64,000 bases of DNA from assembly GCA_040285825.1 (NCBI GenBank), contig JAUPSS010000007.1, positions 830,501-894,500 on the forward strand. The letters are read 5' to 3'. Below the pieces are notes generated by a model that was not told the origin of the DNA, ran no database searches, and saw nothing but the letters and a program-made list of their open reading frames with translations. The position numbers were made by a program, and so were the translations under genes. This document shows, one piece after another, positions 1 through 28,540 of this stretch. The first letter of the stretch is position 1, and the number at the start of each line of letters is the position of its first letter. Source of the stretch: Eukaryota sp. TZLM1-RC. Taxonomy: Eukaryota; Protista; Metamonada: BaSk clade.

Positions 1-953
1 AATTTACAGTTTTGCTGTAAAAAGCTTCAACAAAAATTGTCAAAGATTTTTGAAAGCTTGGACTTTGATGTTAGACTTGGCTTGGCCACGAAAACGAATC
101 CCGCTTTTGCAAATCTTTTACAAGATATGTGTGACAGTACTTCCTCTGCCTTAGTAACAACAATTCCACAAGTTTATGGTACTCTCTTATCCGATTCTGC
201 TTGGACTCTGAATATGAGATTTCGTTCCTTTATCTGGCCTGATAATTTACCTCATAATTTAATTTGTAAATGTTCTCGAGAAATTACAACTACTCATTTG
301 TTAAATTGTAAACATTTTATTACTTTTAGAAGCAAGGTTCATGATGCTGTAAGAGACCAGTTATATTGTATGTGTAAATCTCATAAATTTGAATCTTTTT
401 TTGAAACCTCTGTTGTCAAATATGTTTGATGCTGAAGATGATTTTCATAAGAATAATGGAGGTGATGCCATATTACCTGGATCAGATGGAAGTTTCATTT
501 TATTGGATGTAATGCCTGTTGATCCTTGTAATGCCTCAAATGAAAGGCTTGTTAATTCTGAAATTCATAATCCCCTTTCAAATGCTGAAAATTTTAAATT
601 CAAAAAATACAATGAACCTTTGTCCAAATTGGCCAGTCTACAGCATGCAAAATACAATTTGTATCCATTTGTATTTTCCCTTTTTGGTTCACTTGCACCA
701 ACTGCTTTACGTTTTTTGGATGATTTTGAAATGATTGTAAAGAGAAGAACTGGCAGAAATTTCAACAGATTGTTTTGGCAAAATAGAATTGTGTTTTCTA
801 TTTTTAAGGGGATGTTGAAGATGGTTTCTGATGCTTTGCTTTCTCTTGGATCTCACTATGAGAGAGTTGCATCTAGTGTTTTTGTTTTGGGAGAGATGGA
901 TTTTTTAGATGTTGATTTATAGGTTTAGAATAAAATTAAATTTTCAAAAAAAA
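1..953 (+). mobile_element. 3' part of RLE-type (CRE-like) non-LTR retrotransposon, family A, frameshifted
   Basis: ORFs 37..429 and 389..922 match the C-terminus of the intact 1122-aa ORF at 50880..54248 (CKC..HLLNC Zn finger, VHDAVRD, RLE region, ...MDFLDVDL*). Short 3' UTR with AATAAA and an A-tail ending ~953. Confidence 0.92.
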
Positions 954-996
954 ACAACAGATTGGAATTGTAATTTTTGTTTATTTTCCTTTCACT

Positions 997-2062
997 ATGA
1001 AACTTCTTGTCTTACTACTACTGCTCACGGCAGTTTTCGCCCGAAGTGTTCCTTTCATTATCTACCATACCACTGTTGTCCATGGATGGCTCCTTCCTAA
1101 GCGTCACAATTCCACTGAATACGCCTATTTTGGAGATTTACAATCCATGATTGAGCACACTAATAGCACCCCCACCCCCACTACCCTCAACCCCAACCCC
1201 ACTACCCTCAACCCCAACCCCACTACCCCCAACCCCAACCCCACTACCCCCAACCCCAACCCCACTACCCCCAACCCCAACCCCACTACCCTCACTTATT
1301 ATTATTATTACTCCTCACTTACTGGTCATTTGTCCCAAACTCTTGTTGGTATTAACAATGCAGATGTTACCTTTATTAATGTTGATGTAGTGCATTCACA
1401 AGCTTCTAGACATGTTGAATTAACCAATTGTGACTTCACTGCAACTGATGTCCAATTAAACAATCTTGAAGTTAAAGTTTTTGATATAAAGAGTGGTTCT
1501 GTTTTTGAAGGTTTGTGTGTACAACTTTTAAATATTGATACTCCATCTGAAGCTCCTTTGAATACTTCCTTCAGTAAAGTAACTTTGGTTGATTCTAAAA
1601 TACTTGATTCATCTGTTTTTAGATTAATAGATTTCAATTCTAGTGCAGAAACTACTTTAACTAATTTGGTTCTCATCAATTTTTCTTCTTATTCAGGTTC
1701 ATTCATCAATGCTGATGACTCAACCTTGGATTTCACGTATGTCAAAACTTTGGTCCAGTTGATTCTGATGGAAAAGTCATTGGTGGATGTGCTAATGATG
1801 AACCACTTATTACTCTTGTTAAATCTAATGTTGATTTTGATGATGTAGTTGTTGTTGGTTTTCAATCTCAATCTATTGTTACTACTGATTCTACTATTGA
1901 TTTAGAAACTGTTCTTGTTCGTCATTCTACTGCTAACGATGGTCACTTTGAATTAACTAATTCTGACCTCAAACTAACTAATGTTGAATTTAAGAATCTT
2001 GAAGGCAAAGTTTTTGGCGTAAAAAGTGATTTTAAAGTCGAGGGTTCAAATGTTTATTATTG
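997..2062 (+). pseudogene. Chimeric secreted-protein (pseudo)gene: signal peptide, metallophosphoesterase-like N-terminus, Pro/Thr/Asn repeat, then beta-helix-like surface-protein repeats; frameshift near 1740
   Basis: MKLLVLLLLLTAVFA signal peptide. HTTVVHGW..H....AYFGD resembles the first motif (HTTDxHGW) of calcineurin-like phosphoesterases. Internal repeat NNLEVKVFDIKSG / KNLEGKVFGVKSD continues in another frame after ~1740. Confidence 0.5.
1167..1295 (+). repeat. C-rich 21-bp minisatellite (ACCCYCAACCCCAACCCCACT)n, about 5-6 copies
   Basis: Directly visible tandem repeat encoding T(L/P)NPNPT. Confidence 0.95.
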
Positions 2063-2079
2063 TGTGGGAAATTTGGGGT

Positions 2080-2125
2080 GTCTGATTATGGTTATTAGTA
2101 GGGGTACTAATAACCATAATCAGAC
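2080..2125. repeat. Perfect 21-bp inverted repeat with 4-nt GGGG loop (hairpin/cruciform)
   Basis: GTCTGATTATGGTTATTAGTA (2080-2100), GGGG, TACTAATAACCATAATCAGAC (2105-2125). Flanking TTTGGG/CCCAAA extends the stem imperfectly. Confidence 0.95.
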
Positions 2126-2504
2126 CCAAACACCAAAATATCAAGTCTCTTTGCAATATCGAGAGCAATTCTCTTTATTCAGAGTCATTGTTTATAGATA
2201 CATAAACGACTGCCTAATCATTAATCATTCAGTTTTTGACTGTTTGTTGTTGATTACGGTGAAGAAAGATTTGTTTATATGTATCTGTATAGTCTATTTG
2301 TTATCCATTCTTTATTATTTATGCTGCTTTGTATTTTTCAATTATTATTCTGATGAAGTAGTTGTTGTTGATTGCCAGTCTCAATTTTTTGTTGCTACTA
2401 ATTTCACTATTCATTTTAAAACTGTTGTTTCTAGCAATAATGATCAAATGATAGTTACTGATGCTTCCACTATTGGTTCTTCCACTATTTGCGAATTATC
2501 TTCA

Positions 2505-2558
2505 GACTGGGTTCCTGACCTCACAACGCATGGTGACGTAGAAGCAAATCCAGGTCCC
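2505..2558 (+). other. 2A-like ribosomal skipping (StopGo) peptide 1: DWVPDLTTHGDVEANPG|P
   Basis: Exact match to the D(V/I)ExNPGP consensus, preceded by G and a typical DLT upstream context. Confidence 0.9.
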
Positions 2559-3248
2559 TCGATCGATCTTTTCTCCATTAAATCATTAGAACCAATGGAA
2601 TTTGTTGTAGATGAGGTAATAAATTATTTTTCAGCCAAGTGGATGATCCAATCCAATCATGTTTCAATTTTGAATGTGAATGTGGTTCAGAGTGCTCTCC
2701 TTGATGACCATGAGTCAATGGTTCGGACCATGCGTAATTACATTATAACACCCATCCTTAACAATCACAATTGTCACTTTGTCATTATTCCAATCAATGA
2801 TGTCTTTGGTAAGACTGTCTCATCAATGGACATAAAATCTGGAGGAATGGGAAATCATTGGATTGTTTTAGTTATTGATGTCATGGGTTTTTTGAAAAAA
2901 TAGAACAACGAAGACTATAATTTATATTGTGGTGCCATAGATTCCATGGTTACTCAAGGTCAAGAAGTATCTCACAATATTGCAGCTGTATTGCACAAAT
3001 TTGCAGTGATTTTAAGTTGCCTTGATGGTATTAAAATTTTTCCTGTGCCTAGAGTTCAAAGTGTGAATGATTGTGGAATTTTTTGTTTGAAATATGTACA
3101 GTACTTTATAGAAAATCATCACAACTTTGTTTCTTTAAACGAGATGTTGACGGAAACAGCCAATATTTCAGTCAATGTATATCAGTTCCGCGCAGCATTG
3201 AAACAACAGTTGCTCACAGAACATGGTGATGTAGAGGCGAACCCTGGT
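2556..3248 (+). other. Ulp1/SENP8(NEDP1)-like C48 cysteine protease domain between the two 2A sites (231 codons, one premature TAG at 2901)
   Basis: His-Asp-Cys order with oxyanion Gln: FVIIPINDV...GGMGNHWIVLVIDV...GAIDSM...RVQSVNDCGIFCLKY. Confidence 0.8.
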
Positions 3249-3251
3249 CCA
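3198..3251 (+). other. 2A-like ribosomal skipping peptide 2: LKQQLLTEHGDVEANPG|P
   Basis: Exact D(V/I)ExNPGP consensus, immediately followed by NLS-like PYCQPKKRK. Confidence 0.9.
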
Positions 3252-3789
3252 TATTGTCAGCCCAAAAAGAGAAAGTCATCAGTGGAATCAACCCCTCCTT
3301 CAAAAACTGTCAGACGATCATCATCGTCTGTTGTTCCCACAAAGGTTGTTTCTTCTGTAAAAATTATGAGACCAATCACTTCTGCCGTGATTTCTTCCAA
3401 TCAGCAAGACAGCCTGCAACAAGAACCTTCAACACTATCCCAAATTGGAAAAGATTCATCCTTGACCCCAATACAACGTAGGACCCAATATAACAAAATT
3501 AGAAAATCATTGGGTTATTCAAAATCATTAAGAAACAGTCAAAGATTTCCGATTCCGGCCGAACATTCATCAAAGAGGAGTCGACGTAGGTTTGTCCAAA
3601 GTAGAGGTAGTACTGAACTGCCTCAGGAACCCAGAGATTTTCAAAATCTTGTTGCACCTAAATCTTCTGTTTCAAGTGTTAATGAATTTAAAAAAATTGA
3701 TGTGATTCGAGGAAAGAAGAAAAAGGTTAAAAAGAAACCTTTTATTGATGATCCTGTCCTTAATCAAAAAGTTAGTACCTCTGATCGCC

Positions 3790-4590
3790 CTCTTATTTGT
3801 TCAATTGATATTGAAACCAAGGAAATTGGTGTTGAAATAACCAAGAAACAAGATATCAATAAAACTTTAGACAATTTGCGAGCTCAACAAAAGCAATCAC
3901 AGTCAGAGCGACGTCGCCAAGTGACTGATGATGAGCAATTGTTAGAACAACAGGTTTTTTTAGAACGGCAGGAAATTTCAATGATTTCTATGATTTTGTT
4001 TGAAATTGACCATAATGGGGATACTATTTTCCATTCCTCGAGTATAAATTATGTTGCTAATTTAGAGGGAACGAGACGAGTGTTATCATGGACCAATGAT
4101 AACAAACCAGTTTTTGATGTTTCATTGAATAAATTTGATCATGAACAACATCTATTGAAGTCATTTGCAGAATTCACTTATGATAAAAAAATTGTTGGTT
4201 TCTTAGGCCATAATATTTTTAATTTTGATTTACCTGTGTTGGCTGTGCGATTATCACATTTTGGAATAACTTTTCCAATTTTGTCCCAAAGAATTGGTCT
4301 AAATGAATTATATCTTCATCGACGTTGGAGAGAAGTAATTCAGTTTTATGAGAATTTCACTATTTTGGACACTTTTTTGTTTGCCAGAAAATTCATTAAA
4401 ATTAGATATGGAGCTTCATTGAACAATTTAGCATACCATTTACTTGCTGAAACAAAACTTAAACTTCATGATGAGTTTAAAAATTTATTACCTATTGATA
4501 GCCTCTATTCAAATAAGGCATTGAGAACATTAGGATCTTATTGTCTTCAGGATGCAATTCTTGTTTTCAAATTATTCATTCTATTCCAAA
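3790..4590 (+). other. DEDDy 3'-5' exonuclease domain (family B DNA polymerase proofreading type)
   Basis: ExoI SIDIET (3801-3818), ExoII GFLGHNIFNFDLPVL, ASLNNLAYHLL.ETK, ExoIII YCLQDA (4539-4556). All four acidic residues and the Tyr are present. Confidence 0.85.
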
Positions 4591-6203
4591 GGGATAAAAT
4601 AATAAATCAGTCATGGTCTACAGTAAAGACCTCTGTTTCATCTACAGCAAGGTATGGAGAATTACAAGAAGAGTTACTTATAGCATCTGAGGTAATGACT
4701 GCTGTGAGACAACAAACTTCATTTTGTGTCAAACAGTATCTTTTAGTCAAATTCATGAAGAACGAAGATATGACAAATTTTGACTACAAACTATTCTATC
4801 ACACAATGATATGTTTGAAAAAATTATCTTCAAAGGTGCATCGGTTTAAATTAGCATTCGATAAACCAATACCAACGTTAAGTGATGATTTGAACAACTT
4901 TATTTTTGGGTTAGGAACTTATGATAACAACTCTGAATTCCCTGGGTATCGCCATTGTGTTACTGAATACACCGACACTTCATCAATTTGCCATATGCCT
5001 AGACTAGATTATAACCATGTAAATAGATCATTTGAATATGAAATGTGGCCTGCTTTTGAACTGAATATCAAAAGAAATTATCATTTATATATCAAAAGGT
5101 TCATTAATCATATAATGGGAAAAAAAGATTTGGAAGATCTAATGAAGGAAAATTGGACAGAAGTTCTTCCAGATAGTTTGCAACATTTGAATTATATGCA
5201 ACGCCAAAGATTTCTCAGTTTCTTTAGATTTCGTTTGAAAATTGTGAAGGATTTTATGACTGGTGGGGAGTGAAATGAATTAATTAATTACTTGCAAAAT
5301 TTTGGAAATTCTGATCACCCATCTAATGTATATTTTTTACAAGAAGTTATTAAATATTTTGATGATTCTACAACCGATGTTGTGTTTGAAACCACAAATT
5401 ATTTGATTGAAGAAGGTGTTACATTATTATTGGAGCACTGGTTGTCTATAATTTTCCCAAATATTATCCAAATTAATGAGGGCAATGGAACAGAAAATGT
5501 GTAAGTTAAAATACTGCAATACACACTTGAAAAGTATCCTTTACATTTTCTGAAACCATCATTTCAAATAATTCAATATTTAGAAGGAATTGAAGCAAAA
5601 TTGTTTAATGTCATTCCACTTAATATGGGTAGTAAACCTGGATACTTTCCAATAGACACGCGAACATTGTGGGGTATTGGGAAAAATGCTATGGGTAATT
5701 TAGATGGTAAACCTCGATTTAAACAAGTCCAAAATTATATGTGTTTGTCTGATATTGGTAGTCTAACTCACAATCAACAGAATTCTTATTGGAACAGATG
5801 GTTCAACACTAATAACAAATCTTTCAAAAAAAATGGTTTCAAATTCAATAATTACGCAGTAACCAATGGTATTAGTATTTGTTTTCAGTTTGTGAGAAAA
5901 GATCTCGCAGGATTAACCTTTAAACCTGATTCAAATATTGCCAAGGTATCAGTCTCTTATTTTGATCACCTTGATCCTGAAGATTATAGTGATAAAAATG
6001 TGGTTTTTGGTGATCTTGGAAAGAGAGATTTAATTCAATTTGGAGCACAGTCGGAAGAATCCAATTCAAATCCACTGAAAAAATATGAATGGATGAGGCT
6101 AACATATGGTGAATGGTCACGTCTCAATAGAAAACACAAACAAGTGTTACAATTTTGTGTTAGACAAAATAATGGTAATATTGAAGACCAGACAATGACC
6201 ATT

Positions 6204-6284
6204 TGTTGGCGCCCTAAGGCTTTTATAATATGAATAGAAAATAAATTATCTTTATCTCAACCACTTTTGCAACCTAAGGCAACA
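6204..6284 (+). repeat. 5' LTR (81 bp)
   Basis: Identical to 13147-13227; TG...CA termini. Confidence 0.97.
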
Positions 6285-6367
6285 ATAATTATTGGCCATA
6301 TTAGGTTATAGGTATACCGTTCACACAACTCACAGCTATCAAACAGAGGATATCTTCAGCGGATATC

Positions 6368-9300
6368 ATGTCAGTCTCTCCTCGCCAGGACACTGACTCC
6401 AGCCAAATTTTTTACATTAGACAGATGCAACAGTACGACAGAGATGCTTTGAGCATAGATACAACAACAGCAGGGACTGAAGAGTCAAATAAAGAAGAGG
6501 ACTTTGGCTCGAGACCACCCTCCGCCCCTCCTCATGAGAAAGATATGGAACCAGGCACGGAACCACCTCCCGCCTCTTCCATGTCCAACAAACCAGATAA
6601 GGTTTCAGGAACGGGACCACCCCCCTCCTCACCTAAAGAAAATGTTGGGTTAAGCTCGGATACTTCGTCTGCCCTAAAGGACTACGAAGAACTCCAGTCC
6701 GTTTTAGAAGAAATGGACGACGATGAAAAAGAGCTTCGCCAACAGATAATGAAGGACGCGGAAGCTCACCTTGAACCAACAGATTATTGTTTGTTCGAGC
6801 AGCTCCCTCCCCTTTGGAAGCAAATATCAAAATCTGGTAGAAATGTGGGATTCCAGACTCTGGGCCATAAAGGGGACCCTAATAGAGTCTACGAATTCCC
6901 TCAAAATGAGAGAAGAGAACTCATTAACGCGTTGGACACTTTGAGTAGAGAGACCTATGGACGTGGGGCAGAACGCCGTCCTAGGATAACCGGTATGGAT
7001 AGAGAGATCCATGTGATTCTGGCAAAGCCTATCAAAGATAGGCCTGATTGGGAAGCCATTCACTTAGATCAGTTCGGGAGAAGGATCAGGTTCTTAGCCA
7101 TCGAACGAAGGAGCAGAACCGATACCGATGACATCCTGCAAACTAAATTACCGGCATGGGTGGACTCGCACTTTGATACGATCATCCATAACTACTCAGA
7201 GGTAGAGGATGGGGCTCCTACTTGTTTCAGAGAATACATGGAACAAGCAGACAGCACAAATCCAAGCAAGTTGGATCCCGTCAGTGACTTCTTTGACGCG
7301 GACGCCCTAAATAATATACTTACGGAACGCTCGAGCGTATCCACATTTAGGAGCCGCCCAAATAACTTCATTCAGCAATTCGGGGAATCAACGACAAGGA
7401 AGAAGAAGTTCAGGTTCTTGGTCACGGGTGATCAATCAACAGAGCTCCACCAGAGACCTAAACTTCCTATAATTGCCCCAATTATATCTGAACAAGAGCA
7501 ACCGGTACAAGTCTGTTCCATTGACGTACTCCCTGATCACATCCCAACAGTAGATGTGACAGAACGAGCAAACAGACCTACCAGAGTGGTTCAGGGACCA
7601 TCAAGTCCCTCCCAACCCATGCTCACTAGCGCATCAGAAGACGAAGTCGAGTTGAGAGGACCTAGTTTAGATGAAACACCTCCTCCTCAACCCCCTCGTA
7701 GAAGAGTTACTTCTGAGGAGCCTCTCCGTTTGGAAGACCTCCAAGCTTCTAGAAATATTTTGGATATGAGTATAGCAAGTAGTCTTCAGAGACATGTGGA
7801 CTCTCAGCCTAGGTCAGCTGAATATAAAGCCCCTCACCTATCTGAGAAGGACCCTCTCAACAAGATGTCTCTCGTCTCCTTCCTCCTCAAATTCCAAACA
7901 TGGGACAAATACGGGCGCAAGATAGCCAATCGAAGCTTTCAAGCCCCTGGTCAATCTGATTGGTCTCGTGCTATGTTGATAGCAACCCAAATATTTGGCG
8001 AAGGAAAGACCCAGATTACCCCTGAGTTGTTATCATCACTCCCATCTCACATCAGAGAAGAAATAGACAGGGACATGAAACAGCCACTCTTAAGGATCGA
8101 CCCAGAACTAACAAAACGTTTGGGACCTCCTATCCATCATTATGACTTATTTAGAAGTATGATGATTAGTACTTGTCCATCCGGCTAATCAAGCATGGTC
8201 GACCCCCATCTCATTTCTAGATGGCAAGGCCAAGGACTTCTAAGACCGGACTTCTCAGACGCCGACCTAATGGTTTTTCTGCTACGCAGGACACAATTTA
8301 CCTCATATCATGAGGCTTGCTCTGCCCTAGCAAAACCATGTATAAACTGGAGAAACATCCACAACAAAGTGGATGCGGACAACGAATTTGGTAGGTTCGT
8401 CGAAGATTTTGGAGACGTCCTGAGGATGACCACTTACATGGTTGACCACTCCATATCTGCATCAATTAGGGGAAGCAGTGGTTTAATAACCCTCTCACCC
8501 GCCCTTATTGCAGAATACTTTCTCTTGGGCATAGATAATTTTGCCATTACCAAGGAGCTGGCAAGCCATTGGACAAGAGAAGATCTATGGGACCCTTCAA
8601 CAGGTACAACTTTGTTAGACCTGATTTCGACCACCAGGAGACACTTTCTAGCTTGGTGCCAAACAACAGGAAATAGGCACACCATGGAACTTTTGAGAAA
8701 ACAAGCTGAAAGAGAAGAAGACATCCTAGTAGGCCTTTCGACCATGAGAACGTTCTCTAGAGGAGCAACCCCATCTGGTCCAGGTACTAAACGTCGCTCG
8801 GGAGGCGGATTCAAAGGAACTCCCCAAAACATATATGTCCCAGAAAGACATGAACGAGAGGGATCTAAGTTCTGTACATTCTGTAACGTCACCGAAGGAA
8901 ATAACCCTATCGGTCACACGGTTTTCGAATGCAAAGACCCTCGTTGTACCAGGAGCAAGGTACCAAAAGAATTGAGGTTTAAGATCGGCGAGGCTGATCA
9001 GCCTGCGAGAAGTGGCAGTGTAGTTAGAGGCCGAGGTGGCCGTGGTAGACGTGTTTCTAGGTTTAGAGGTAGGGGCCGAGGTGGCCATTTTAGAGGACAT
9101 AAAGGTAGAGGTCAATATAGACCTATTTATTACATAAATACACAAGAGGATACATCATCAATACCATCCCCTTCTGAGAACGTGTCAGCTAGTTCGAGCA
9201 TGACCTCTCACAGACGGATTGACCGTTTCAGCAACAGGGTCAGAAATACAGGAAACTTTCCCAATCGGAAACAAATCAACGCAATCAATCATAATCAATC

Positions 9301-9904
9301 AATTGCCGATTTCGGAAACCCAGTTAACAACTCCCCAACAGCTCAACAATTCTTACTAAATCCTCTACAATTCCACAAACCCAGCTCTGATATCAATAGT
9401 ATTTTTGGTATAAATTCTACGGTTAGTGAGAACCACATCAGATCCCAGCGTTCTCCATTTCTAAGATTGGAGATTTTAATAAATAATGTAAAAATGATTG
9501 CAACTATTGATTCGGCAGCGTTTTGTTCGGTTATAACAGAAGATTTGGCTAACAAATGCAACATGTCAATTAATAGAGATGATACAATTGAGTTCTTACC
9601 AGCCAATAACGTATCAAGTAAATCGCTAGGGAGTACAAATGGTATTCTGTCGTTCAACGTAGGAAGCATTGCGCACCAGGTACATTATAGACATACTCTT
9701 CCCATAATCCCGGGTTCGAACAAATTATTAATAGGGATAGACATGTTAAAAACACTTGGGCTTCAGACGGATGATGGTCTTTTCATTAGATTAGACAAAG
9801 AACACCGCACTTTGTTAAATGCGGAATCTGAATTCGACTCAAGAATCGCTCAACATTCGATTGGGACCTTAGATAACCAATTGACCGAGTCCTTCCGATT
9901 TTGA
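6368..9904 (+). CDS. Gag-like protein + aspartic protease (in-frame TAA at 8186-8188)
   Basis: ORFs 6368..8188 and 8195..9904 are in the same frame. Atypical Zn knuckle CTFC-x10-H-x4-C, RGG-rich tract, protease motif ATIDSAA...LLIGIDML. Confidence 0.8.
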
Positions 9905-12900
9905 GGAGCAGTTAACTAGATCTGGTTGTGAGATAAAATTAGATAATGATAATAATCAAATAAAATTAACGAGTCTACTAGGAATTTTCAGCGATGTTTT
10001 TAGTGAAACTCCAAACAGAAAAGGAATCGATTGTAAACCTCTAACAATCCCCTTTAGAGACGAGAACGCTATAGTACATAAACCTGCTAGACGATTAAAT
10101 CCCAGCAAAATGGAAATAGCAAACAAAATATTTGATGAACTGATTGAAATGGGCTATGCAGTTGAATCTAATTATAAATTCAGCTCTCCTATTGTCTTAG
10201 TTATATATCCTGACGGCAAGAAACCCAGGCTAACTGGAGACTTTAGTGGTAAAGATGGAGTCAATGCCCACACGATTTCAGTAGAGCCTAATCTACCTAG
10301 GATTAGTGATATTTTAGAGTTTTTAAGTAGAGCAGATTACATAGCCACGCTTGATTTACCAAAAGCTTTCTGGCAAATGAATGTAGCTGAGAAGGACATT
10401 GAGAAAACATCAATCTCAATCCCTGGAAGGTCAATTATGTTTAAAAGAGCTTGCTTCGGATTAAAGAACATCCCAGCAGTATTTCAAAATGTAATGATGG
10501 AAATATTCCAAATTGATGGCGTTTTTCATATATATTGATGATATTATAATAGTTGGAACGACTTTCGATGAATTCTATAAGAGATTACAAAGAGTCCTCC
10601 AATGCGCCAGAAATAGACGTGTAAATATAGGTTTACGTAAATGTAAATTCGTAACATCCAAACACCCTATTGATATTTTAGGAAGCACCTTCCAGGATAA
10701 AACCAGATTTATTAGTAAGAAAAAAATCGAAGCCTTGATGAGAATCCCTAGACCAAAATCAGTGAAAGAAGTTCGCTCATTGGTAGGATCCATCAATTAT
10801 ATAAGAGATTGGCTTCCAGGTATTTCCGAGTTAATAGCTCCAATCAATGAGTTAATTAAAGGAATACCTAGAGTAATAAAATGGACCAACGAGCATGACG
10901 ATTATCTTAAACAAATAAAAGATTTAATAATTAATCACATGCCCCTTGAATTACCAGCTCCGGGCAAGCGCGTACTAATAAGTACCGACGCATCAGATGT
11001 AGCAGTTGGAGGCGTTATTTGGCAAGAAATTGAACCATACTCCCCTGCAGGAACCCCGCTGAATAAAAGAAAAGTGAAACCGTTGTCGTTTTATAGTAGA
11101 TTACTTACAGAAACACAACGAAAATGGTCCACTTTACAGAAAGAATTATACGCAATACTTCTGATTTTAACTGAAAGTTGTTTAGAAAGCTACCTTTTGA
11201 CTAGACATCTAACAATTTTCACTGATCACAAAAACATTGCATTCCTGGCCACAGCTCCAGAGAAAAATAGAATTGTAAAGAGATGGCTGCCGATACTATC
11301 TGAATTCGACTTTGATATAGTCCATGAACCAGGTGAAGATAACCACTGGGCAGATATGCTATCGAGGAATATTGATTTAGATCAAAATGAGGAAACTGCT
11401 TCTATATGTAGTATAAATATACCAGATACTTTACTTTCGAATTACGAGATACCTCCAATAGACGATGATTCTGATTCGGACTTCGAAGATATCCCATCAA
11501 TTTCATCCCTAAGTAGACACCAGGACTTACCTATTTTTTCTTCCTGGTTCTCTAAAATAAGATCTGAACAACAAATAGCCAAGAATAATAATGACCCTCT
11601 ATTTGAGAATGCAATTCTAGATGAAAATACTCAAATTTGGAAAAACAATAAAAATAAAATTTTAATTCCAAAATGCCTCAGAAAACAGGCACTATTATTA
11701 ATTCATGGATTGGTTCAATCAGGCCACCCCAGCAAAAACGACAGTCTACATAAACTGTCCAAAAGCGATTTTTTCTGGCCTAATATGAGAAAGGACCTCA
11801 TAAACCACATCAAAAGATGCCCAACTTGTCAAAAAACGGCTCCAGTTAATAGAATAAAAACACCTTCTACAGGTTCCCTTTGGGCAGATCGTCCTTTTGC
11901 TAGATTAAATGTCGACACAATTGGACCTCTGAATACTGATAGTGATGGTAATAAATACTTATTAGTATTTGTAGATTCTTTTACTGGGTATTCAATTTTA
12001 GTCCCTTCTGAAGGAACTCAATGCCTTAGAGACCGCAGACGCTTTGATTTGGAACGTTTGCGCAATTTTTGGCATACCTATGTTAATTCATAGTGATAAT
12101 GGTCCTGAGTTCGCCAATGAGACTTTTAAGATAGTGTGTAACAGATTAGCTATTGAGATGAGTAACTCAATACCCCACTACTCTGAAAGTAATGGACTCG
12201 TAGAACGAAAACATGGAGACGTTCTACAATGCTTGAGAAAATTATTAATAGATTTTAATGATTACGGAAATTGGTCTACTTATGTACCCATATCCCAACT
12301 ATTAATAAATTCCACTAAAAGCAGAAAGACAGGTTTTACACCTTACGAACTAATGTTTGGATCTTCGATTAGTCCAAGATCGGACCCTGCAAACATATTA
12401 GGAAACTTATCAAAATTTGATTCCAATATACCTTTATTAGACGATATTAAAATGAAAAATACTCGTCTGCAAGAAAAAAGGGAAGAAGCAGAGCGTCATC
12501 AATTATCAAATACTCCGATTTCTGTAGACAATACTAATTCGCGCTCTATAGTATTTAATACTGGTGACTATGTCCTACGTAAAACCAAACAGAATAATAA
12601 ATTACATGGATCTTGGAACGGACCCTTTTTAGTAATAGACCGTCCTTCCAACTCTACTTTATTATTAAAGAATCTTATCACTGGCAGTGAATTAAAAGCT
12701 GCTAAGAAAGATTGCAAAATCTATAACGCAGATAATCCTCAGGATATCGAATTTCTAAAAGCAGTCGCAGCAGGCGATGCTGAGAAACATGTTATAGAGA
12801 AAATCCTCTCAGAATATAATTCTGACTCAGGTAGTTTCTGTACTGTTCAATGGTTTGGCGGTGAGACAACAGAAGAGCCTCTCCATTCAGTTAAACATTC

Positions 12901-13030
12901 AGAAGCTTACAAGTTGTTCAGTAGGAATAACAAGAAAATTGGAAAACGTACCTCTAGTCAACGTAAGAGTACCTCCAATAGCTCTACGCCTTGCAAGAGG
13001 CCTAGACGTAGTACTAGAATTAGGAAGTGA
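9897..13030 (+). CDS. Pol: reverse transcriptase, RNase H, integrase, chromodomain (frameshifts near 9900, 10525, 12005)
   Basis: SSPIVLV, LDLPKAFWQ, FGLKN.P, YIDDIII; RNase H TDASD..KELYA..TDHKN; integrase H..GH...CPTC, VDTIGP, HSDNGPEF, ESNGLVER; GPF motif; chromo-like VIEKIL...VQWFGGETTEEP. Confidence 0.93.
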
Positions 13031-13128
13031 TGCTAATTCTCAGTTTAGATTAGGTTATTTGTAGTTATTTAGTTATTTAGTTATTTGTTTATAGTTTAGA
13101 TTCATATTTATATAAGCCTATTAGCTCT

Positions 13129-13146
13129 GAAAAAGGGAAGAAGCAG
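13129..13146 (+). promoter_or_regulatory. Polypurine tract (plus-strand primer) of the LTR element
   Basis: GAAAAAGGGAAGAAGCAG directly abuts the 3' LTR. Confidence 0.85.
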
Positions 13147-13227
13147 TGTTGGCGCCCTAAGGCTTTTATAATATGAATAGAAAATAAATTATCTTTATCT
13201 CAACCACTTTTGCAACCTAAGGCAACA
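13147..13227 (+). repeat. 3' LTR (81 bp)
   Basis: Identical to 6204-6284, followed by TSD CATT. Confidence 0.97.
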
Positions 13228-13231
13228 CATT

Positions 13232-13870
13232 GAGGAATGGAATTCGTGGTTACGTGATCATGATTCAAAAACTGTTGATTACCACAAATTCAGAGAGTTT
13301 ATGTTGGCCAAGTGTAAACACTACAATGCAGTGAAACAATTTTATAGTTTACCCTTATGGAGGATACATAATATCCAAAGTTATATCCATAGGCAAAAAA
13401 CTGAAGAAAGAATTGTGAACAAGTTATTGACAACATTCGGTGGTAAAGACAAAATAGTATTGTGTATTGAGGACTTGGGTCGTAAACCAATCAGTAATCC
13501 AACTCCTTCCAATAGATGGATAAGTTGTTGTATTAAACCAGGTTTTTAAACTGTTCTAATTGATGAAAGCCATACTTCTTCAAAGTGTCCTTCTTGCTTT
13601 GAAAAAGTGTTTGAAACAACTATCAAAACAAGGAATCCAATTCCTAAAAGTGCTGAAAAAATACCGTTCAAATCTCCTCATGGCCTTTTGGAATGTAGAA
13701 GTTCTCAGTGTATTAATGATGCAAAAGCACGATGTAAAAAGTCAGAAAGTAGAGAAGCAGTCAAGGCAAAGTATTGGAATAGGAACAAGATGGCTTGTTT
13801 GAATATGTTGAATGTATTTGATCACTGGTTATCCGGTGAAGAAGGTAGGCCTGTTTATCTTAGAACTTAG
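13232..13870 (+). pseudogene. 3' part of Fanzor (Fanzor1-like): helical region, RuvC-II, Zn finger, RuvC-III, C-terminal RP motif
   Basis: In frame with the 5601 ORF after LTR removal (..QTMTI|EEWNSWLRDHDSKTVDYHKFREFM..). FY..PLWR..IQSYIHRQKTE...FGGKDKIVLCIEDLG; LIDESHTSSKCPSC; HGLLECRSSQC; WNRNKMACLNM; GRPVYLRT*. One premature TAA at 13547. Confidence 0.9.
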
Positions 13871-13960
13871 TTATTTTTACTGACTAGTAAAATCTAGTCA
13901 TAGTTGGCATACGCCACCTTATCCCTGATCTCTGCGAACCAATGATCACTTTTATACACC
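13840..13960 (+). ncRNA. Candidate Fanzor omegaRNA scaffold
   Basis: Overlaps and follows the Fanzor stop codon, where omegaRNAs are expected. Stems: TGACTAG/CTAGTCA (13881-13900), TGGC/GCCA (13905-13916), TGATC/GATCA (13926-13948). Boundaries are inferred. Confidence 0.5.
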
Positions 13961-13993
13961 ACCTCCACATATTTTGTTTTACACACATCTCCG

Positions 13994-14529
13994 ATGGTCT
14001 CCCCCAAGGTTGAGCGGCTTTTGCTGTGGTGGAATCGACCTTACATGATCACAATTCGTAACCTCATGTATGTAGCAATTTCTCTCTAACTCTAGTTGGA
14101 TTTTTATTGGTCAAGGATGGGTCATTTTTCTTTTCTATTTATGGGGTGGTGTAGCTCTAGCCACTACCATCGTAGGCATACCGTTTGCACTAATGGTTTG
14201 GAAGCTATCACTTTTTGTTCTTTGGCCTTCGGGACTTGAGTTTCGCCGCACAGTTTGTCTCTTGTGTTAGTTGACCCTAGGATAGAGGCCCGACTGGAGC
14301 TTTGTTCTACATATTGATTACAGTTTGGATATTACTTGCCGGAATTGTGTTAATTTTGTTTCACATTTCCTTGGGTGTTGCTGCAGCGGCCACCATTATT
14401 GGTATTCCTGCAGCAATTCAGCATTTTAAGTTTCTTCTCAATGCTGTGAATCCTTTTGTAGAAGCTTATCCCAATGAATGGGCTCGAAGGAGTGCACATG
14501 AAGTTGGCCGAACGCCATTTCCTGCTTGA
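13994..14529 (+). CDS. YccF-domain (inner membrane component) protein, two 28-nt introns (14068-14095, 14253-14280)
   Basis: Spliced translation gives two YccF repeats: NLIWIFIGQGW...TTIVGIPFALMVWKLSLFVLWPSG and TVWILLAG...ATIIGIPAAIQHFKFLLNAVNPF. GT..AG introns restore the frame. Confidence 0.85.
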
Positions 14530-14704: not shown

Positions 14705-17600
14705 TTTTTTTAAACAACTGGAATTTTTATTGAGATAAAAATAACCATCTAGAATTCAATATCCTCCAAACAAGCGTCACTGTTACTGAACCTACTCACA
14801 GCATTACGTTCATATTCTACACCAATAGCTAAAAGTGCCTTTGAAATCATTGTTGGAATAGACTTGAAAATGCAGAAAACAATTCTATTTAACCAGAAAG
14901 AGGAGTTCATTGTTTTACCAGACCTATTCAGTAACACTTTTTTAAAATTTTCCAAAAAGTGCAACCCTGAAGGTCCAATATTGCCAAAAAGAGAAATGGC
15001 AAACGGCACAAACTGATATTTCACATGTTCCACTCTACCTAACTGTGCCAAAGGTTCTTCATATTTTTTATCTTCTTTTTTTCGGCGTTAGATAACGGCG
15101 AATCAGCGGAATACACTAAACGAGCGGCAGAATTTTTGCAAACATCAACTGAGACAACATCCTCAACATTAAGAACACCATCGATCCCTGGAGCTACTAA
15201 ATCTGCCCTTCTTTTACCAAAGGAATCATCAGTTTGATCTGAAGACAGCTTACGTACTAGTGGCTCAATAAATGCCTCTATATTGAAACTTTTGCACATG
15301 GCATATAATTGATCACGAACTGAGTCATGAACAATTGAGCGATAAGTTATAAAATACTTACAGTTTAAAATATGGGAAAGCGTAACAACACTCTTGCAGC
15401 GACAAATTAAATCATTTGGTAATGAACAAGGCCATAGAAAACATCTCATTCTCATTGCAGTGGTCCATTGGTGATCATTAAGTAGAAGGCCATAAATGTT
15501 GGGAATTTGGGAAATTAGGCAACTTGAGCAACTGTCTTCAAGATCAATCAAAAAGTTTGCAAAAACGGGATTTTTTTCCTTAGCCAAGCTAAGACGTACA
15601 ATATAATCCAAGTTTTCTAAAACTTTCAAGATTTTTTTCTGCAATTTTGCAAAAGTCAGTGGTAAGGAGAGCAAGCTTCTTGAAGGAAGTTCCACAATAT
15701 CAGAGGGGAAACATTTAGCCCAAATATTGGGTGAAAGAGTTTCAATTTCCTGTTGCAAAGAAATAAGATAAGAGCTGCCACAATTTTCAATGAGATGAAT
15801 TTTTTCAGGAAAACGATTCACAAGTTCATAAATAAAATTCTTTCCACCTCCAATAAAGGCAGCTTTACAAAGGTAGCTTGATTTATGAAAATCAACACCA
15901 CCAAAATTTGTACCACAAAAAATGTGGCTTCGTAACTGAGATGCATCAATTTCCAATAATTTTGCTAAAACATTGGTTCTTTGTTCATTAAAAATTCGAC
16001 AAAACTCCAAAGAAATTGATGGTGATGTTGATCTCAAAATATGAGTAAATTTTCCAGAATAACAGATTTTTAGGAAAAAGAATTTCAAATGTTTCTCAAT
16101 ATTTAAATTTTCTATTGATTCTAATTCATTTCCAAATTGAGTCAACAGAGTCGAAAGTTGGCCTTTCACTTCATCAATATTTTCGAGATAACAACCCAAA
16201 AAACGAAACCCAGACTGATCATAATTGATAAAGGGGACATTGACATCATTAATGAAAAAATCAATTGGTTCATGGCCAATAATCAAACATTTGGAGATAT
16301 TCAATGAGAGACCAATATCTTCATAACGCTGTTAAATAAAAGTTGCTATTTGTTTCAGAATTGTAATAGGAGCAATTACAGAAATGTCATCCATATATGC
16401 TACAATATCTATTTCTGGGAATTTTTCTTTCAATTCGCACATTAATGGATGAATTGCCAGACAAAAGAAAAAAGGACCAAGTGGATCACCTTGTTTAACA
16501 CCTGAAGACGAAAGCAGGTCAAAGTTTTCATAGACCAATGTGGATGATTTTCCATAAAATGAATAGAAAAAAGGATCAACTTCAGGAAAATGCTTTCGCA
16601 GCAAAGGTAAAATGGAAGAACGAGATACAGAATTAAAAGCATTCTTAAAATCTAAATTGAAGATGTAATTAGAATCACTAGAATTAAAAAACACATCCGA
16701 CGAAAGAGCAGCAGAAGAAGCACCATCAATTGTCTTGATTCCAAATTGAAATGGACTGAAAAATTCCTTGGCTTTTTTCCCAATTCTATTGAAAACAAGA
16801 GACGCAAGAATTCTTGAAAACGATTCTCCAATTGCAATTGGACGGATTTTGGATTGACTTTTTTTGAGAGCAATTAAGCGAGCACTGGTCATCTCAAAAG
16901 GGACTTTAATTTTTAACGTAAGAAGATTGTTGAAAAAAAGAACAAGATCATCAGCAATTTCAGGACACTGTCCAACAGCTGATTTGATCATGTCAAAATT
17001 CAACAAAGATGGCCCAGGAGCTTTTCCAGTAGGCATTTGCTGAATCAGTTTCAATACCTCTGAAGCATTGACAGGATTTTGCAGCCAATAATCAACTGAA
17101 TCTGGTTTAGTACAATGAAAATTTTCTTCTGGATGAAGATGATTCAATTGGAACAATGTGCTTTCATTACATTCAGCTAAATCAGAAGAGAATAGACCTT
17201 GTTTTGCAGATCCAAAGCGTCCTTTTAAAGCTAATTTTCTCACTAATTTTTCTTTCGAAAAAACATTTTTTTTAAAATTTGTTTTTTTCGATAAAAGTTT
17301 TTTATCTTTTTTCAGAAAAAATTTCCAAATAGGCGTAACATCCCATAATTCTTTACGGAGATTTTCAGTAAATCGATTATTACAATAAATATCAACTCTA
17401 TGTTTCACTATTGTTTTTAATAAATAATTGTTATATTTTATATCATAATTCCCACAGTAACATACAAGCGATGTTTTTTCGAGTGTCATGATTACAAAAG
17501 GGAAATTGTTAGTCTGAACCAAATCTAAAATTGGAAATGGCCACAATTCGTTTGGAATGGTTTCGGTAAAGGTGGATGCAGCCCTAATCCAATGAAGTAT
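14705..17600 (-). mobile_element. RLE-type (CRE-like) non-LTR retrotransposon, family C, near full length, degenerate
   Basis: RT motifs GKAPGPS, RPIAIGE, LDFKNAFN, GVKQGDPLGP, YMDD; CRC..HILNC; HDSVRD; RRADL. In-frame stop at 16332 and frameshift near 15060. 5' end uncertain. Confidence 0.9.
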
Positions 17601-17862: not shown

Positions 17863-19025
17863 TTATATGAATTGTCCCATGTTAAGTTTTTTGGGAATAT
17901 ACTCGTGACTTAGAAATTGTAAATTTCCATCAACTGCCAATAAAGATTGTATTTCAGCTTTTTGTTCACTTTGAATCATCTTTTCAAGTTCCTTTTCCCA
18001 TTCTGGGGCAACCTTCCAACACTCTTTGCCCAACATCCCTTTTCCTCTGCGTAGATCACATTCTGTCATTGAAAGTAATGCTGATCTTGGAATGTTAAAC
18101 TCTTCTAAATCACTGGCAGTAACACCAATCCATCTTAGTCTTGGTACAGCTAAGTCAGCTTCATGAACAGCCGCAGTACTTCCAAACCTATACTTACATA
18201 GTATATCTAGGCCATATGGATCGGCATCTGCTAACCCTAACACTGGAACATCAGGAAAAGCAGCAGCTATTTTTGACAAGAACGCACGAGTGGCAAAGTC
18301 AGGGAACCCGCACCCTGTGATCAAAATTGATGCTCCTATGTGCTCAAGGATATTATCTTCGATTAATCTCACCTGGAATTAGTTTATTTGATATTCAACA
18401 CACTAGGGCTGCATCTTTTTCTACAACCAATATGTACTTTAATGGTTTAGTCGCCCGAATGTCTGTTATTCGTTTAACGTATGGTGTTATTGATACACCA
18501 TGATGTGTTGTTTTGCAGTTCACAACATGATGACCATCCCAGAACACCAGGTCACCATAGCATACTCCTGTGGTGAGGTATATGGATTACAAACCTTTTG
18601 CTTCGGCCATTATATGGAAACAATCGCGAGGAATTGAGAAAATGCCTAGGATGATTATGTTGTCAATAAGACATACGAGACCATTCCATAAGCGTTTCAT
18701 CACTAGTTCTCTGGTTTTTAAATAAATTGGGATCTGTATAAAATAGTTCTCTTTTGGTGGCATATACATCACGTTTCAACAAATCGTGAATGACAGACAG
18801 TGTTCTCAACATACAATCAAACTTGTAGGCACCTGTTTTTGTAGACATTGATATACTTTTAAGCGACACAGATGCATCCATGGTTGATGTATAACATCCC
18901 AATTCCGTATTGAAGACAACATTGGCGTCCTTCTTGGGTGCAAGAAGTTCTGGAAAAGAGTAATTATCGATGGAGTTCAAGATCTGTAAAACAAGTGTTT
19001 CAATGTCATTAAGAAGACTGGACAT
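17863..19025 (-). CDS. SPO11: Spo11/Top6A family topoisomerase-like protein, three introns (18646-18676, 18568-18594, 18373-18403)
   Basis: Catalytic KRELFY, Toprim LVVEKDA, ITGCGFPDFATR, DADPYG, KAEIQ. The three GT-AG introns of 31, 27 and 31 nt join the ORFs in frame. Confidence 0.93.
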
Positions 19026-19144
19026 CGTCTAGTGATACAATCTCAACTGTTGAGATTGATGAATTTGGTTGCAGGGAAGATTTGTAAATCTTGGAAAATC
19101 AAACGCATCACGACCAGAGGCCCTTCTTACATATCTCTCCCATA

Positions 19145-21661: not shown

Positions 21662-21791
21662 TTTTCATGTATTATATCGTTTGTCATTTCAATTATAAAT
21701 GTGTTTATTTATTGTTTGTGAGCCATTTTTTCAATTGATTTTTACAGTCTTGTGTAAAGGTTATAATTTATTACAAAAAGGAACATGATCA
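21648..21791 (+). repeat. ~144-bp dispersed repeat, copy 1 (includes stop codon and 3' UTR of the coiled-coil gene)
   Basis: Closely similar to 36805-36948. Confidence 0.85.
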
Positions 21792-22793
21792 TATCAATCT
21801 GTCGTAAATGTTGAAAACAGTGGTCTCTTGCTTTGAAGACGCTAGCAAATCTTAGATTACATTCGTGAATGTGAAATAGTTGAGCTATTAATTTGCCGTA
21901 TTTAACACAGCAACTGAGCCCTTATGCCAATTGGGATGTAAAATCAATGTGATTGGTTTTGTCTTGATTGTAACAGTTGTTCTGTAATATTTCAACAGCA
22001 ATTGTCAAATGTTATTCAAATGGTGAAAGCATTTGTTGAGTATACTGTTGAATTTTGTGGTGCACACAGGGTGGCATGAAACTAATAGGCAGTCCTGCAA
22101 CTATCTTCCTTCATAAAACATTCGCAACTTGGAACCCCTCATTCCATATCAAGAATTCAAACATTTGTTAAAATTCATTTAAAATTATTATTTGCTCTTC
22201 AAAACTTATTATAGGTAGAACACTTGCATATTCTACAACAACCTGTTCAAAACTATTTCCTTCAGATAGACAAGAGCTTTATAGTATGGCAGAACACATC
22301 AAAAGCACTGAATGTTGAAATGTAATGCTGATGCATAAATTTGACGTGCACCGTGTGTTTGAAACAAGACCATCTGAAGACATTTAAAGGAAGTCGGTGA
22401 TGCAATAGTCGACATTATGCACAACAACATTCATTCTTTTCTTCAAATTCACCATATTGTAGTTTGAACACCACATGTCTTGTATTCATTCCAAAAGCAT
22501 TGTCAAAGAAGTGTCATTCATCTATAAAAAAATTAAGAGACAAAAAGTGTAACAAAATTGTTTTCAGCAGATTTAGACACCATGGACAATAGCTGGAAGG
22601 ACAGTGGCATGAGATAGGAAAGAGTGGTGATTAGACTAGTAGAAAAGCAAAATCAAGGCAGGGGGATTATGAGGGGGATTAGAATCAGGGTGGCCGGTGA
22701 GGGGGTTTTTTATCCATTCTGAAAGACCACCACAATTAAATCCAATTTCCCTTCTTTTAACAATCTTCATTCTGGAGGACAGCATCATCGAAA

Positions 22794-24989: not shown

Positions 24990-25034
24990 TTTTTTTTTGC
25001 CATTTAAAATTTATTACCACATTGTTTACATAAT

Positions 25035-28120: not shown

Positions 28121-28192
28121 TCGGTTATAGTATAGTGGTGAGTATCCCCGCCTGTCACGCGGGAGGTCGGGGTTCGATTCCCCGTAACCGAG
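28121..28192 (+). tRNA. tRNA-Asp (GTC)
   Basis: Acceptor TCGGTTA/TAACCGA; anticodon arm CCCGC-CTGTCAC-GCGGG; T arm CGGGG-TTCGATT-CCCCG; downstream T-run. Confidence 0.95.
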
Positions 28193-28467: not shown

Positions 28468-28540
28468 GCTTTAACTAGACAAGAAGCAGATCAAAATTGT
28501 GTAGAGAAAATCTTGGTTCCATGAATTTCGTTCCAATTTT
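28468..28540 (+). mobile_element. Decayed 3' stub of family B non-LTR element
   Basis: GCTTTAACTAGACAAGAAGCAGATCAAAATTGTGTAGAGAAAATCTTGGTT resembles the family B ORF end. Confidence 0.6.

What the first reader, a model, noticed from the sequence alone, without database searches (positions are those of the whole stretch)
3790..6203. Natural fusion of a PolB-type DEDDy 3'-5' exonuclease to the N-terminus of Fanzor
Seen: ExoI DIE, ExoII NxxxFD and ExoIII YxxxD are all intact. No stop or 2A motif lies between the exonuclease and the start of the Fanzor-like region (WSTVKTSV, ~4615). No polymerase domain follows. Inference: a proofreading-type exonuclease tethered to an RNA-guided nuclease could resect the cut ends (changing repair outcome or homing) or trim the omegaRNA/target. 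This is a natural analogue of engineered exonuclease-Cas fusions. The exonuclease may derive from a host, viral or Polinton PolB.
Basis: partly seen in the sequence, partly recalled or inferred. Interest (0 to 1): 0.85.

Follow-up and report, generated by a model that had tools for sequence, protein, structure and literature searches.

The report
Fanzor with built-in proofreading exonuclease
A family of repeated elements in oxygen-avoiding protists encodes a predicted RNA-guided DNA cutter (Fanzor) joined at a fixed spacing to a DNA-polymerase-type 3'-5' exonuclease domain, which likely trims the cut end so the element can be copied back into the break; the copy in this window is broken.

Summary
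Confirmed, and wider than this locus. A PolB-type DEDDy exonuclease (3783-4598) runs in frame into a Fanzor1 (from 4614); no stop or 2A lies between them. This copy is dead: stops at 2901, 5271, 5502 and 13547, and a Ty3 LTR element (6204-13227, CATT duplication) splits the RuvC domain, which ends at 13870. The fusion is a family: it occurs in three genomes labelled TZLM1-RC, GEM-RC1 and TZLM3-RCL (skoliomonad metamonads), in subfamilies only 26-41% identical in the exonuclease. Exonuclease D, E, D, Y, D are invariant in 7 of 7 subfamily representatives, and the exonuclease-to-Fanzor spacing is identical in all 27 stored proteins in which the junction motif was found. Three copies (P0028, P0177, P0178) align without gaps over at least 1096 aa and keep all active-site residues. 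RuvC is D-E-N, as in active GtFz1. Upstream lie 2A motifs and often a Ulp1-like protease. No such fusion turned up in other Fanzors seen or in my literature searches. Best guess (0.45): the exonuclease removes the 14-17-nt heterologous 3' flap that Fanzor1 cutting leaves, a job done by Pol delta proofreading in yeast, easing homing. No activity was tested.

The parts
2505..2558 (+). First 2A-like (StopGo) motif, ...DLTTHGDVEANPGP; near the likely 5' start of the element's coding region (5' end of the element not determined)
   Evidence: six-frame motif scan; matches the GD[V/I]ExNPGP motif in PMC3708506; a 2A-like motif precedes the exonuclease in 10 stored family proteins
2559..3212 (+). Ulp1/C48-like cysteine protease domain, broken by TAG at 2901-2903
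   Evidence: Pfam Peptidase_C48 20.5 bits, cut-off 20.7, read with X at the stop; similar HW...Q..N..DCG domain in P0059, P0186, P0191-P0193
3198..3251 (+). Second 2A-like motif, ...LLTEHGDVEANPGP; would release the linker-exonuclease-Fanzor protein
   Evidence: also in sister copy P0008
3252..3782 (+). Ser/Lys/Arg-rich, poorly conserved linker with basic clusters (possible nuclear localisation signals, inferred)
   Evidence: 38 K+R and 32 S in 175 aa of P0008; 14-37% identity with partial coverage among subfamilies
3783..4598 (+). PolB-type DEDDy 3'-5' exonuclease domain (D3807, E3813, D4227, Y4539, D4551), with a helical insert after ExoI
   Evidence: Pfam PF03104; invariant D, E, D, Y, D in 7 of 7 subfamily representatives; model pLDDT 76.3, pTM 0.76; VIA Z up to 17.3 to PolB exonucleases
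4599..4613 (+). Five-residue junction between the last exonuclease helix and the first Fanzor strand
   Evidence: spacing identical in 27 proteins; model shows helix 250-269 then strand 278-284
4614..6203 (+). Fanzor1, N-terminal part (WED/REC and RuvC-I, catalytic D at 6012-6014); premature stops TGA 5271-5273 and TAA 5502-5504
   Evidence: 97% identical to P0008 over 1024 aa
6204..13227 (+). Inserted Ty3/Gypsy LTR retrotransposon: identical 81-bp LTRs (6204-6284, 13147-13227), CATT target duplication (6200-6203, 13228-13231), protease, RT, RNase H, integrase in broken frames
   Evidence: Pfam; a DNA contig of run X2 joins 6199 to 13228
13229..13870 (+). Fanzor1, C-terminal part: RuvC-II E (13565-13567) six residues before the first zinc-finger Cys, zinc finger, RuvC-III N (13784-13786); premature TAA at 13547-13549; 15-nt deletion at 13498; stop 13868-13870
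13800..13916 (+). Candidate omegaRNA scaffold; the element's 3' end is probably 13916; two hairpins at 13881-13900 and 13905-13916; the guide would start at 13917
   Evidence: two contigs of one sample stop matching at 13916 and run on; fold z -3.47 for 13868-13916 and -2.53 for 13800-13916; P0007 reads through the same post-stop sequence

Best explanation
This is a broken copy of a multicopy element family whose long reading frame joins a PolB-type 3'-5' exonuclease domain directly to a Fanzor1, and the exonuclease likely trims the single-stranded 3' end left by the predicted RNA-guided cut so that the host would copy the element back into the break. Steps: (1) shown: 2A - optional Ulp1-like protease - 2A - linker - exonuclease - Fanzor in one frame; inferred: ribosome skipping releases linker-exonuclease-Fanzor as one protein. 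(2) Inferred from homology: an omegaRNA from the 3' end (to about 13916) plus flanking guide directs cutting of an empty allele; known Fanzor1s cut the non-target strand 14-17 nt beyond the TAM. (3) Follows from geometry: the TAM-side fragment then ends in 14-17 nt that have no counterpart next to the TAM in the element-bearing donor, a heterologous 3' flap that must go before repair synthesis or fill-in. (4) Inferred: the exonuclease, held at a fixed spacing on the WED (TAM) side, chews this displaced strand back to the junction, doing in cis what Pol delta proofreading does for flaps of 20 nt or less in yeast. (5) Inferred: in a lineage reported to lack NHEJ this raises the rate of restorative homing.
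For: Fusion and its conservation; D/E/D/Y/D invariant in 7 of 7 representatives at 27-41% identity; of 16 proteins covering all motifs, 16 keep the first three acidic residues, 15 the fourth and 12 the full D-E-N-D-Y-D set; ExoIII-to-WED spacing identical in 27 proteins; exonuclease about as conserved as WED/REC (26-41% vs 23-50%). Fanzor likely active in intact copies: D-E-N triad, which PMC11423790 shows is active in GtFz1 and improves SpuFz1 (passages); gap-free copies P0028/P0177/P0178. DNA rather than RNA substrate: best sequence and fold matches are DNA polymerase proofreading domains. Cut positions: PMC10432273 (passages). Pol delta removing flaps of 20 nt or less: PMC10622511 (passages). 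Metamonads lack Ku/DNA-PKcs: PMC8516963 (passages). OMEGA systems as restorative homing nucleases: PMC13565253 (passages).
Against: No activity of either domain was tested. Homing is shown for TnpB/IscB, not for Fanzor, per the list in PMC13565253. No transposase, terminal inverted repeat or target duplication was found for the element in the window, so excision, the premise of restorative homing, is not shown. The host's own Pol delta should already be able to trim such flaps, so the benefit may be small. I could not read model coordinates, so whether the exonuclease site can reach the non-target-strand end is unmeasured; pLDDT over parts of the exonuclease is under 50. One subfamily (P0059, P0191-P0193) has altered ExoII/ExoIII residues. 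The NHEJ survey passages read did not cover skoliomonads.
Confidence: 0.45

Rival explanations
1. The exonuclease makes the cut destructive: it erodes the 3' ends so that targets are not re-ligated but lost or repaired with deletions, as in engineered TREX2-Cas9 fusions; the element uses this against empty alleles, competing elements or viruses.
For: Same conserved active site and fixed tether. Engineered TREX2-SpCas9 fusions raise editing (PMC13370227, search listing and abstract start only). The two flanks of this copy belong to different genes (surface-protein-like upstream, YccF-like downstream), which flank deletion could produce.
Against: Metamonads reportedly lack canonical NHEJ, so blocking re-ligation matters less; the flank mismatch has other explanations and was seen at one locus only.
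Confidence: 0.2
2. The exonuclease trims the 3' end of the omegaRNA read-through transcript to guide length (RNA maturation).
For: DEDD enzymes include RNases; RNase T and 3'hExo are among fold matches at Z 11.6-12.4; Fanzor1 guides come from the 3' flank and need a defined 3' end (PMC13565253).
Against: All top sequence and fold matches are DNA proofreading domains; other Fanzors mature their RNA without such a domain (none of the other Fanzors seen carries it); the guide 3' end lies at the TAM-distal side, away from the WED start (inferred from PMC10432273).
Confidence: 0.12
3. The exonuclease serves the element's own mobilisation or replication (processing donor or intermediate ends) and merely rides on Fanzor as part of a polyprotein; the fusion is not coupled to target cutting.
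For: The element is a virus-like 2A polyprotein with optional cargo; DnaQ-like exonucleases are known accessory domains of LTR elements (PMC6338049, passage); the mode of mobility is unknown.
Against: The element separates its other modules with 2A motifs but never the exonuclease from Fanzor, and the junction length is invariant, which points to a structural or functional coupling.
Confidence: 0.15
4. The domain is mainly structural or DNA-binding (an extension of the WED/TAM-binding lobe) and its nuclease activity is irrelevant or lost.
For: Short rigid junction; drift of ExoII/III residues in one subfamily.
Against: Metal-binding residues are among only 21 invariant columns of 294, which a purely structural role would not keep.
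Confidence: 0.08

Closest known systems
Fanzor1 (SpuFz1, PpFz1, GtFz1)
   Same: Profile match to SpuFz1 E 4.3e-18 and PpFz1 E 6.7e-16; fold match to SpuFz E 6.6e-28 with TM 0.75-0.79 over the whole target, PpFz 0.63-0.68, GtFz 0.57; RuvC-II E six residues before the zinc finger; D-E-N triad as in GtFz1; short structured stretch after the stop; Spu-1 too lacks a transposase and has Ty3 insertions (PMC10432273).
   Different: About 270 aa exonuclease fused to the N-terminus; 2A motifs and Ulp1-like protease upstream; no terminal inverted repeats found (Spu-1 has 30-nt ones); a long-stemmed clade of its own.
Proofreading exonuclease domain of family B DNA polymerases (Pol delta, herpesvirus, T4/RB69, Pol alpha/epsilon, Pol II)
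   Same: ExoI/II/III motifs, PF03104, fold (Z 14-17.3, rmsd 3.0-3.8 over 165-196 residues); best profile match Pol delta.
   Different: No polymerase domain; a roughly 45-residue helical insert after ExoI; joined to an RNA-guided nuclease.
Cas2-DEDDh fusion of CRISPR adaptation (PDB 8fyc) and engineered TREX2/exonuclease-Cas fusions
   Same: A DEDD exonuclease tethered to a nucleic-acid-processing partner; 8fyc appears among fold matches at Z 11.2; its role in trimming prespacer 3' overhangs is recalled, not from a call.
   Different: DEDDh rather than PolB-type DEDDy; partner is an integrase or Cas9, not a TnpB-family nuclease; the engineered ones use flexible linkers (recalled).
2A-bearing non-LTR retrotransposons (L1Tc, Ingi, L2, CR1, Crack)
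   Same: GD[V/I]ExNPGP motif near the start of the element's reading frame (PMC3708506, passages).
   Different: No reverse transcriptase or APE domain here; the 2A precedes a protease and an exonuclease-Fanzor.

Membership tests
Fanzor1 | Split RuvC with D, E and D (or N) catalytic residues | tested here: met
   D (GDLGKRD), E (IDESHTS), N (WNRN) in the window and P0008; aligned to SpuFz1; N is active in GtFz1
Fanzor1 | RuvC-II glutamate six residues before the zinc finger | tested here: met
   E-SHTSSK-C; criterion from PMC13565253
Fanzor1 | WED-REC-RuvC-TNB fold with Fanzor1 extensions | tested here: met
   model pLDDT 83.0, pTM 0.79; Foldseek top 7 rows are SpuFz, PpFz, GtFz
Fanzor1 | omegaRNA at the element's 3' end with flank-derived guide | tested here: inconclusive
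   boundary at 13916 from one sample; hairpins z -3.47; no Rfam match; no covariation test possible
Fanzor1 | RNA-guided, TAM-dependent dsDNA cleavage | not testable with these tools
   needs biochemistry
Fanzor1 | Carried by a mobile element with defined ends | tested here: inconclusive
   multicopy (11 and 18 cluster members) but no TIR or TSD found in the window and the 5' end is undetermined
PolB-type DEDDy 3'-5' exonuclease | ExoI DxE, ExoII NxxxxD, ExoIII YxxxD | tested here: met
PolB-type DEDDy 3'-5' exonuclease | RNase H-like DEDD fold | tested here: met
   VIA Z 17.3, rmsd 3.3, 189 aligned to Pol alpha; first 16 rows all family B polymerases; Foldseek best Pol delta E 1.2e-7
PolB-type DEDDy 3'-5' exonuclease | Metal-dependent 3'-5' activity on DNA | not testable with these tools
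   needs biochemistry
Polinton/protein-primed PolB remnant | Closest kinship to protein-primed PolB and Polinton gene context | tested here: inconclusive
   top 60 of 126 PDB sequence matches shown are RNA-primed PolBs; no tree with protein-primed PolBs could be built
2A/StopGo element | GD[V/I]ExNPGP core motif | tested here: met
   two exact motifs in the window; some relatives carry E>H variants, which PMC3708506 links to low activity
2A/StopGo element | Ribosome skipping activity | not testable with these tools
   the motif alone is not sufficient (PMC3708506)
Ulp1/C48 protease | Pfam PF02902 above cut-off with His and Cys motifs | tested here: inconclusive
   20.5 bits against cut-off 20.7; HW and DCG motifs present; broken by a stop here

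The most novel reading that the evidence does not exclude
A natural RNA-guided cut-and-trim enzyme: a Fanzor1 that carries its own Pol-delta-like proofreading domain on a rigid junction and uses it to clean the heterologous 3' flap that every TnpB/Cas12-type cut leaves, so that the break becomes a ready primer for templated copying; expressed from a virus-like 2A polyprotein element without its own transposase, which may spread by homing-like copying.
Probability: 0.4. Interest if true: 0.85.

Novelty: new variant of a known kind. Interest (0 to 1): 0.7.

Why it matters
Cas12/TnpB/Fanzor nucleases cut well inside the target, so templated insertion at the TAM always faces a short mismatched 3' tail. 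A lineage that has kept an exonuclease welded to Fanzor at an unchanged spacing through deep divergence suggests that end processing limits how these elements persist, and offers a direct test of whether Fanzors act as homing nucleases, which is still unshown. It is also a ready natural scaffold (about 1000 aa, intact public copies P0028, P0177, P0178) for asking whether a fixed-geometry exonuclease shifts editing toward deletions or toward homology-directed repair.

Tried and rejected
No whole genome is held, so element ends, copy number, empty sites, host Pol delta and host repair genes could not be examined. No RNA holder listed; this says nothing on expression. Relatives in viral contigs: none; metagenome contigs: none with the full alignment, and the exonuclease alignment gave no usable pattern. 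Search for longer homologues of the fused protein (1414-4035 aa): none scored, though a 2027-aa member later appeared by cluster look-up; its N-terminal DEAH helicase is probably a gene-model fusion with a host gene (inference; seen in 1 of 4 cluster members). Terminal inverted repeats and target duplications: best matches at chance level. Rfam: nothing at 13600-14200. ESM Atlas for the fused protein: best score 0.75, a lead only. Earlier findings: none. Rejected: (a) nuclease-dead Fanzor, my first reading of WNRN, because D-E-N is active in GtFz1; (b) gene ends at 6203; (c) chance or gene-model fusion, because the junction is open in the window's DNA and of fixed length in 27 proteins; (d) P0008 as proof of an intact copy: it lacks 8 residues that other copies have, possibly a predicted mini-intron patching a frameshift, so I rely on P0028/P0177/P0178. 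The maximum-likelihood tree did not finish; FastTree was used. A tree of the exonuclease against PolB families was not built: only 5 full polymerases were on hand. No complex prediction was run.

Full report
Observation. Frame +3 is open from 2904 to 5270 and carries ExoI DIE, ExoII NIFNFD and ExoIII YCLQD, followed 20 codons after the last Asp by WSTVKTSV at 4614. Pfam gives DNA_pol_B_exo1 above its cut-off and no polymerase domain. A six-frame scan finds 2A motifs only at 2535 and 3228, both upstream. It omitted that the frame has stops at 5271 and 5502 and that 6203 is not the end of the gene.

Anatomy of the locus. At 6204 a Ty3/Gypsy element begins, with identical 81-bp LTRs and a CATT duplication on both sides and protease, RT, RNase H and integrase domains. 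The Fanzor frame resumes at 13229 and ends at 13870, with one more stop at 13547. A DNA contig from run X2 joins 6199 to 13228, so the uninterrupted form exists as DNA. Upstream the same frame holds 2A - Ulp1-like domain (stop at 2901; Pfam 20.5 against cut-off 20.7) - 2A - basic, serine-rich linker. This copy is a pseudogene.

The fusion is a family. The first homologue search gave 2 proteins among 6359 candidates; their clusters hold 11 and 18 members labelled Eukaryota sp. TZLM1-RC and GEM-RC1, the former on 5 different contigs. P0008 matches both halves of the window gene (97% and 94%). A profile search of 1.84 billion representatives gave 1005 hits, of which I saw the best 150; the top ones that I looked up (10, 6 of 10) are labelled TZLM3-RCL, GEM-RC1 or TZLM1-RC. 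PMC11316075 (passages) describes GEM-RC and TZLM3-RCL as skoliomonads, free-living metamonads with repeat-rich genomes; that TZLM1-RC belongs with them is recalled. Of 198 stored proteins, 35 hit the exonuclease profile: 30 family members or fragments and 5 full polymerases; of 174 that hit the Fanzor C-terminal profile, 15 also hit the exonuclease, all from those three genomes. In a FastTree of 84 RuvC-region sequences (85 of 101 alignment rows passed my 60% occupancy filter; P0039 was then dropped by the tool) the 16 rows from these genomes form one branch with SH support 99 and a long stem; three of them I had left unlabelled; the root is only a midpoint. One gain of the exonuclease in the family's ancestor is the simplest reading, not a tested one.

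Selection on the exonuclease and the junction. In seven subfamily representatives, 27-41% identical to the window's domain, D9, E11, D149, Y253 and D257 are among 21 invariant columns. Of 16 proteins that cover all motifs, 12 keep the full D-E-N-D-Y-D set; the exceptions are a frameshifted end (P0182) and one subfamily (P0059, P0191, P0192) with altered ExoII N or ExoIII spacing. The exonuclease is about as conserved as the WED/REC region (26-41% vs 23-50% to P0008), while the linker is barely alignable. The distance from the ExoIII Asp to the first WED strand is identical in all 27 proteins in which my pattern matched the junction (P0182, which breaks off there, did not match). P0028, P0177 and P0178 align without gaps at 94-95% over 1096-1203 aa and keep every exonuclease and RuvC residue. 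These are gene models, so hidden predicted introns cannot be excluded, but three gap-free copies and the open junction in the window's DNA make an intron at the junction unlikely.

Structure. AlphaFold2 on residues 214-1233 of P0008 with 101 sequences gave pLDDT 83.0, pTM 0.79, with weak stretches inside the exonuclease. Foldseek ranks SpuFz, PpFz and GtFz first (E 6.6e-28 to 6.9e-19; TM 0.75-0.79 over SpuFz), so the Fanzor part is complete, and it also finds PolB chains over about 290 columns. The domain alone (pLDDT 76.3) matches family B polymerase exonucleases in the first 16 VIA rows, Z 17.3-14.0, and Pol delta first by Foldseek and by profile (E 2.7e-10, ahead of HSV polymerase 2.7e-8 and T4 5.2e-8). 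The margins are small and VIA ranks Pol delta eleventh; the word-based search found archaeal-like and giant-virus-like polymerases (my reading of the sequences), and the Atlas lists stand-alone PF03104 proteins of bacteria and phages at 0.91-0.93. The donor is therefore an RNA-primed PolB of unresolved kind; nothing points to Polintons.

Is the Fanzor active in intact copies? RuvC-III reads WNRN. Among stored proteins with that motif, 97 have D and 26 have N, 21 of the 26 being family members (family assignment and sequence similarity). PMC11423790 (passages) shows that GtFz1 has N at this position, is active, and that D606N raises SpuFz1 activity. So the triad is compatible with cutting. Two contigs of one sample stop matching at 13916 and run on into other sequence, 46 nt after the stop; that stretch folds into two hairpins (z -3.47, 0 of 200 shuffles as good). 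This resembles the short region between stop and right end that forms the SpuFz1 omegaRNA (PMC10432273, passages), but rests on one sample. No inverted repeat or target duplication was found, no transposase is encoded between the first 2A and the 3' end, and the 5' end is undetermined.

Mechanism. SpuFz1 cuts the non-target strand after base 16-17 and GtFz1 after 14-17 (PMC10432273). If the target is an empty allele and the template carries the element next to the TAM, the TAM-side 3' end carries 14-17 nt that cannot pair with the template, whichever end invades first. In yeast, flaps of 20 nt or less are removed by Pol delta proofreading (PMC10622511, passages; PMC10868807, passages, reports up to 40 nt of chew-back after invasion but no such role in its own assay). 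That strand is displaced and single-stranded in the R-loop, the preferred substrate of proofreading domains (established knowledge), and the exonuclease is attached to the WED domain, which grips the TAM duplex. Metamonads are reported to lack Ku and DNA-PKcs and to rely on homologous recombination (PMC8516963, passages), and OMEGA nucleases are viewed as restorative homing enzymes, shown for TnpB and IscB but not for Fanzor (PMC13565253, passages). I give flap trimming 0.45; destructive end erosion 0.2; a role in the element's own mobilisation 0.15; omegaRNA trimming 0.12; a structural role 0.08. Every functional step is inferred.

Novelty. Searches for Fanzor + exonuclease (28 papers, listing and abstract starts), TnpB + DEDD + fusion (12), Fanzor + 2A peptide + transposon (3) and TnpB/Fanzor with DnaQ, proofreading or PF03104 terms (1) showed no natural fusion. 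'Exonuclease' does not occur in the main texts of the three Fanzor surveys PMC10711439, PMC10530073 and PMC10432273 (term searches), nor in the two supplementary files of PMC10530073; supplements of the other two were not read, and domain figures, Repbase and subscription journals are not covered. Two recent 2A surveys do not mention Fanzor (term searches). The parts are known kinds; the conserved rigid fusion and the 2A/Ulp1 polyprotein context appear undescribed. Verdict: new variant of a known kind, interest 0.7.

Noticed in passing
window 46600-46940 (+): Fragment of a second, divergent Fanzor subfamily (resembles P0048/P0070 by eye; 31% to P0008) abutting a non-LTR retrotransposon copy.
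   Followed up: partly
window 6204-13227: Ty3/Gypsy element with very short (81 bp), identical LTRs and a 4-bp target duplication, so a recent insertion, yet with several frame breaks.
   Followed up: partly
window 2006-2180: 174-nt stretch skipped by a contig of run X1; it holds a perfect 21-bp-arm hairpin at about 2080-2125 (z -5.98): probably a small non-autonomous insertion in the upstream gene.
   Followed up: partly
window 940-2500 (+): Repeat-rich, signal-peptide-like surface-protein gene (PNPTT repeats); its last repeat runs in frame into the first 2A motif, so the 2A could free the element's protein from a host reading frame.
   Followed up: partly
window 14060-14510 (+): YccF-family membrane protein gene remnant in the 3' flank (Pfam PF03733, E 2.6e-8); unrelated to the 5' flank gene.
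   Followed up: partly
P0059, P0182, P0183; P0186, P0192, P0193: Gene models of different Fanzor subfamilies share 70-96% identical sequence upstream of the 2A, suggesting a common 5' region or insertion into one shared repeat.
   Followed up: partly
window 1-950, 14750-17600, 29300-32850, 37450-64000: Many copies and tandem arrays (2061- and 5550-bp periods) of non-LTR retrotransposons with RT and a restriction-like endonuclease motif (my reading), one with a 1152-aa open frame at 50880-54338 (-).
   Followed up: no
window 17863-36762: Ordinary host genes by my reading of the ORFs: Spo11-like, nicotinate phosphoribosyltransferase, RasGAP-like, oxysterol-binding protein, RING protein.
   Followed up: no
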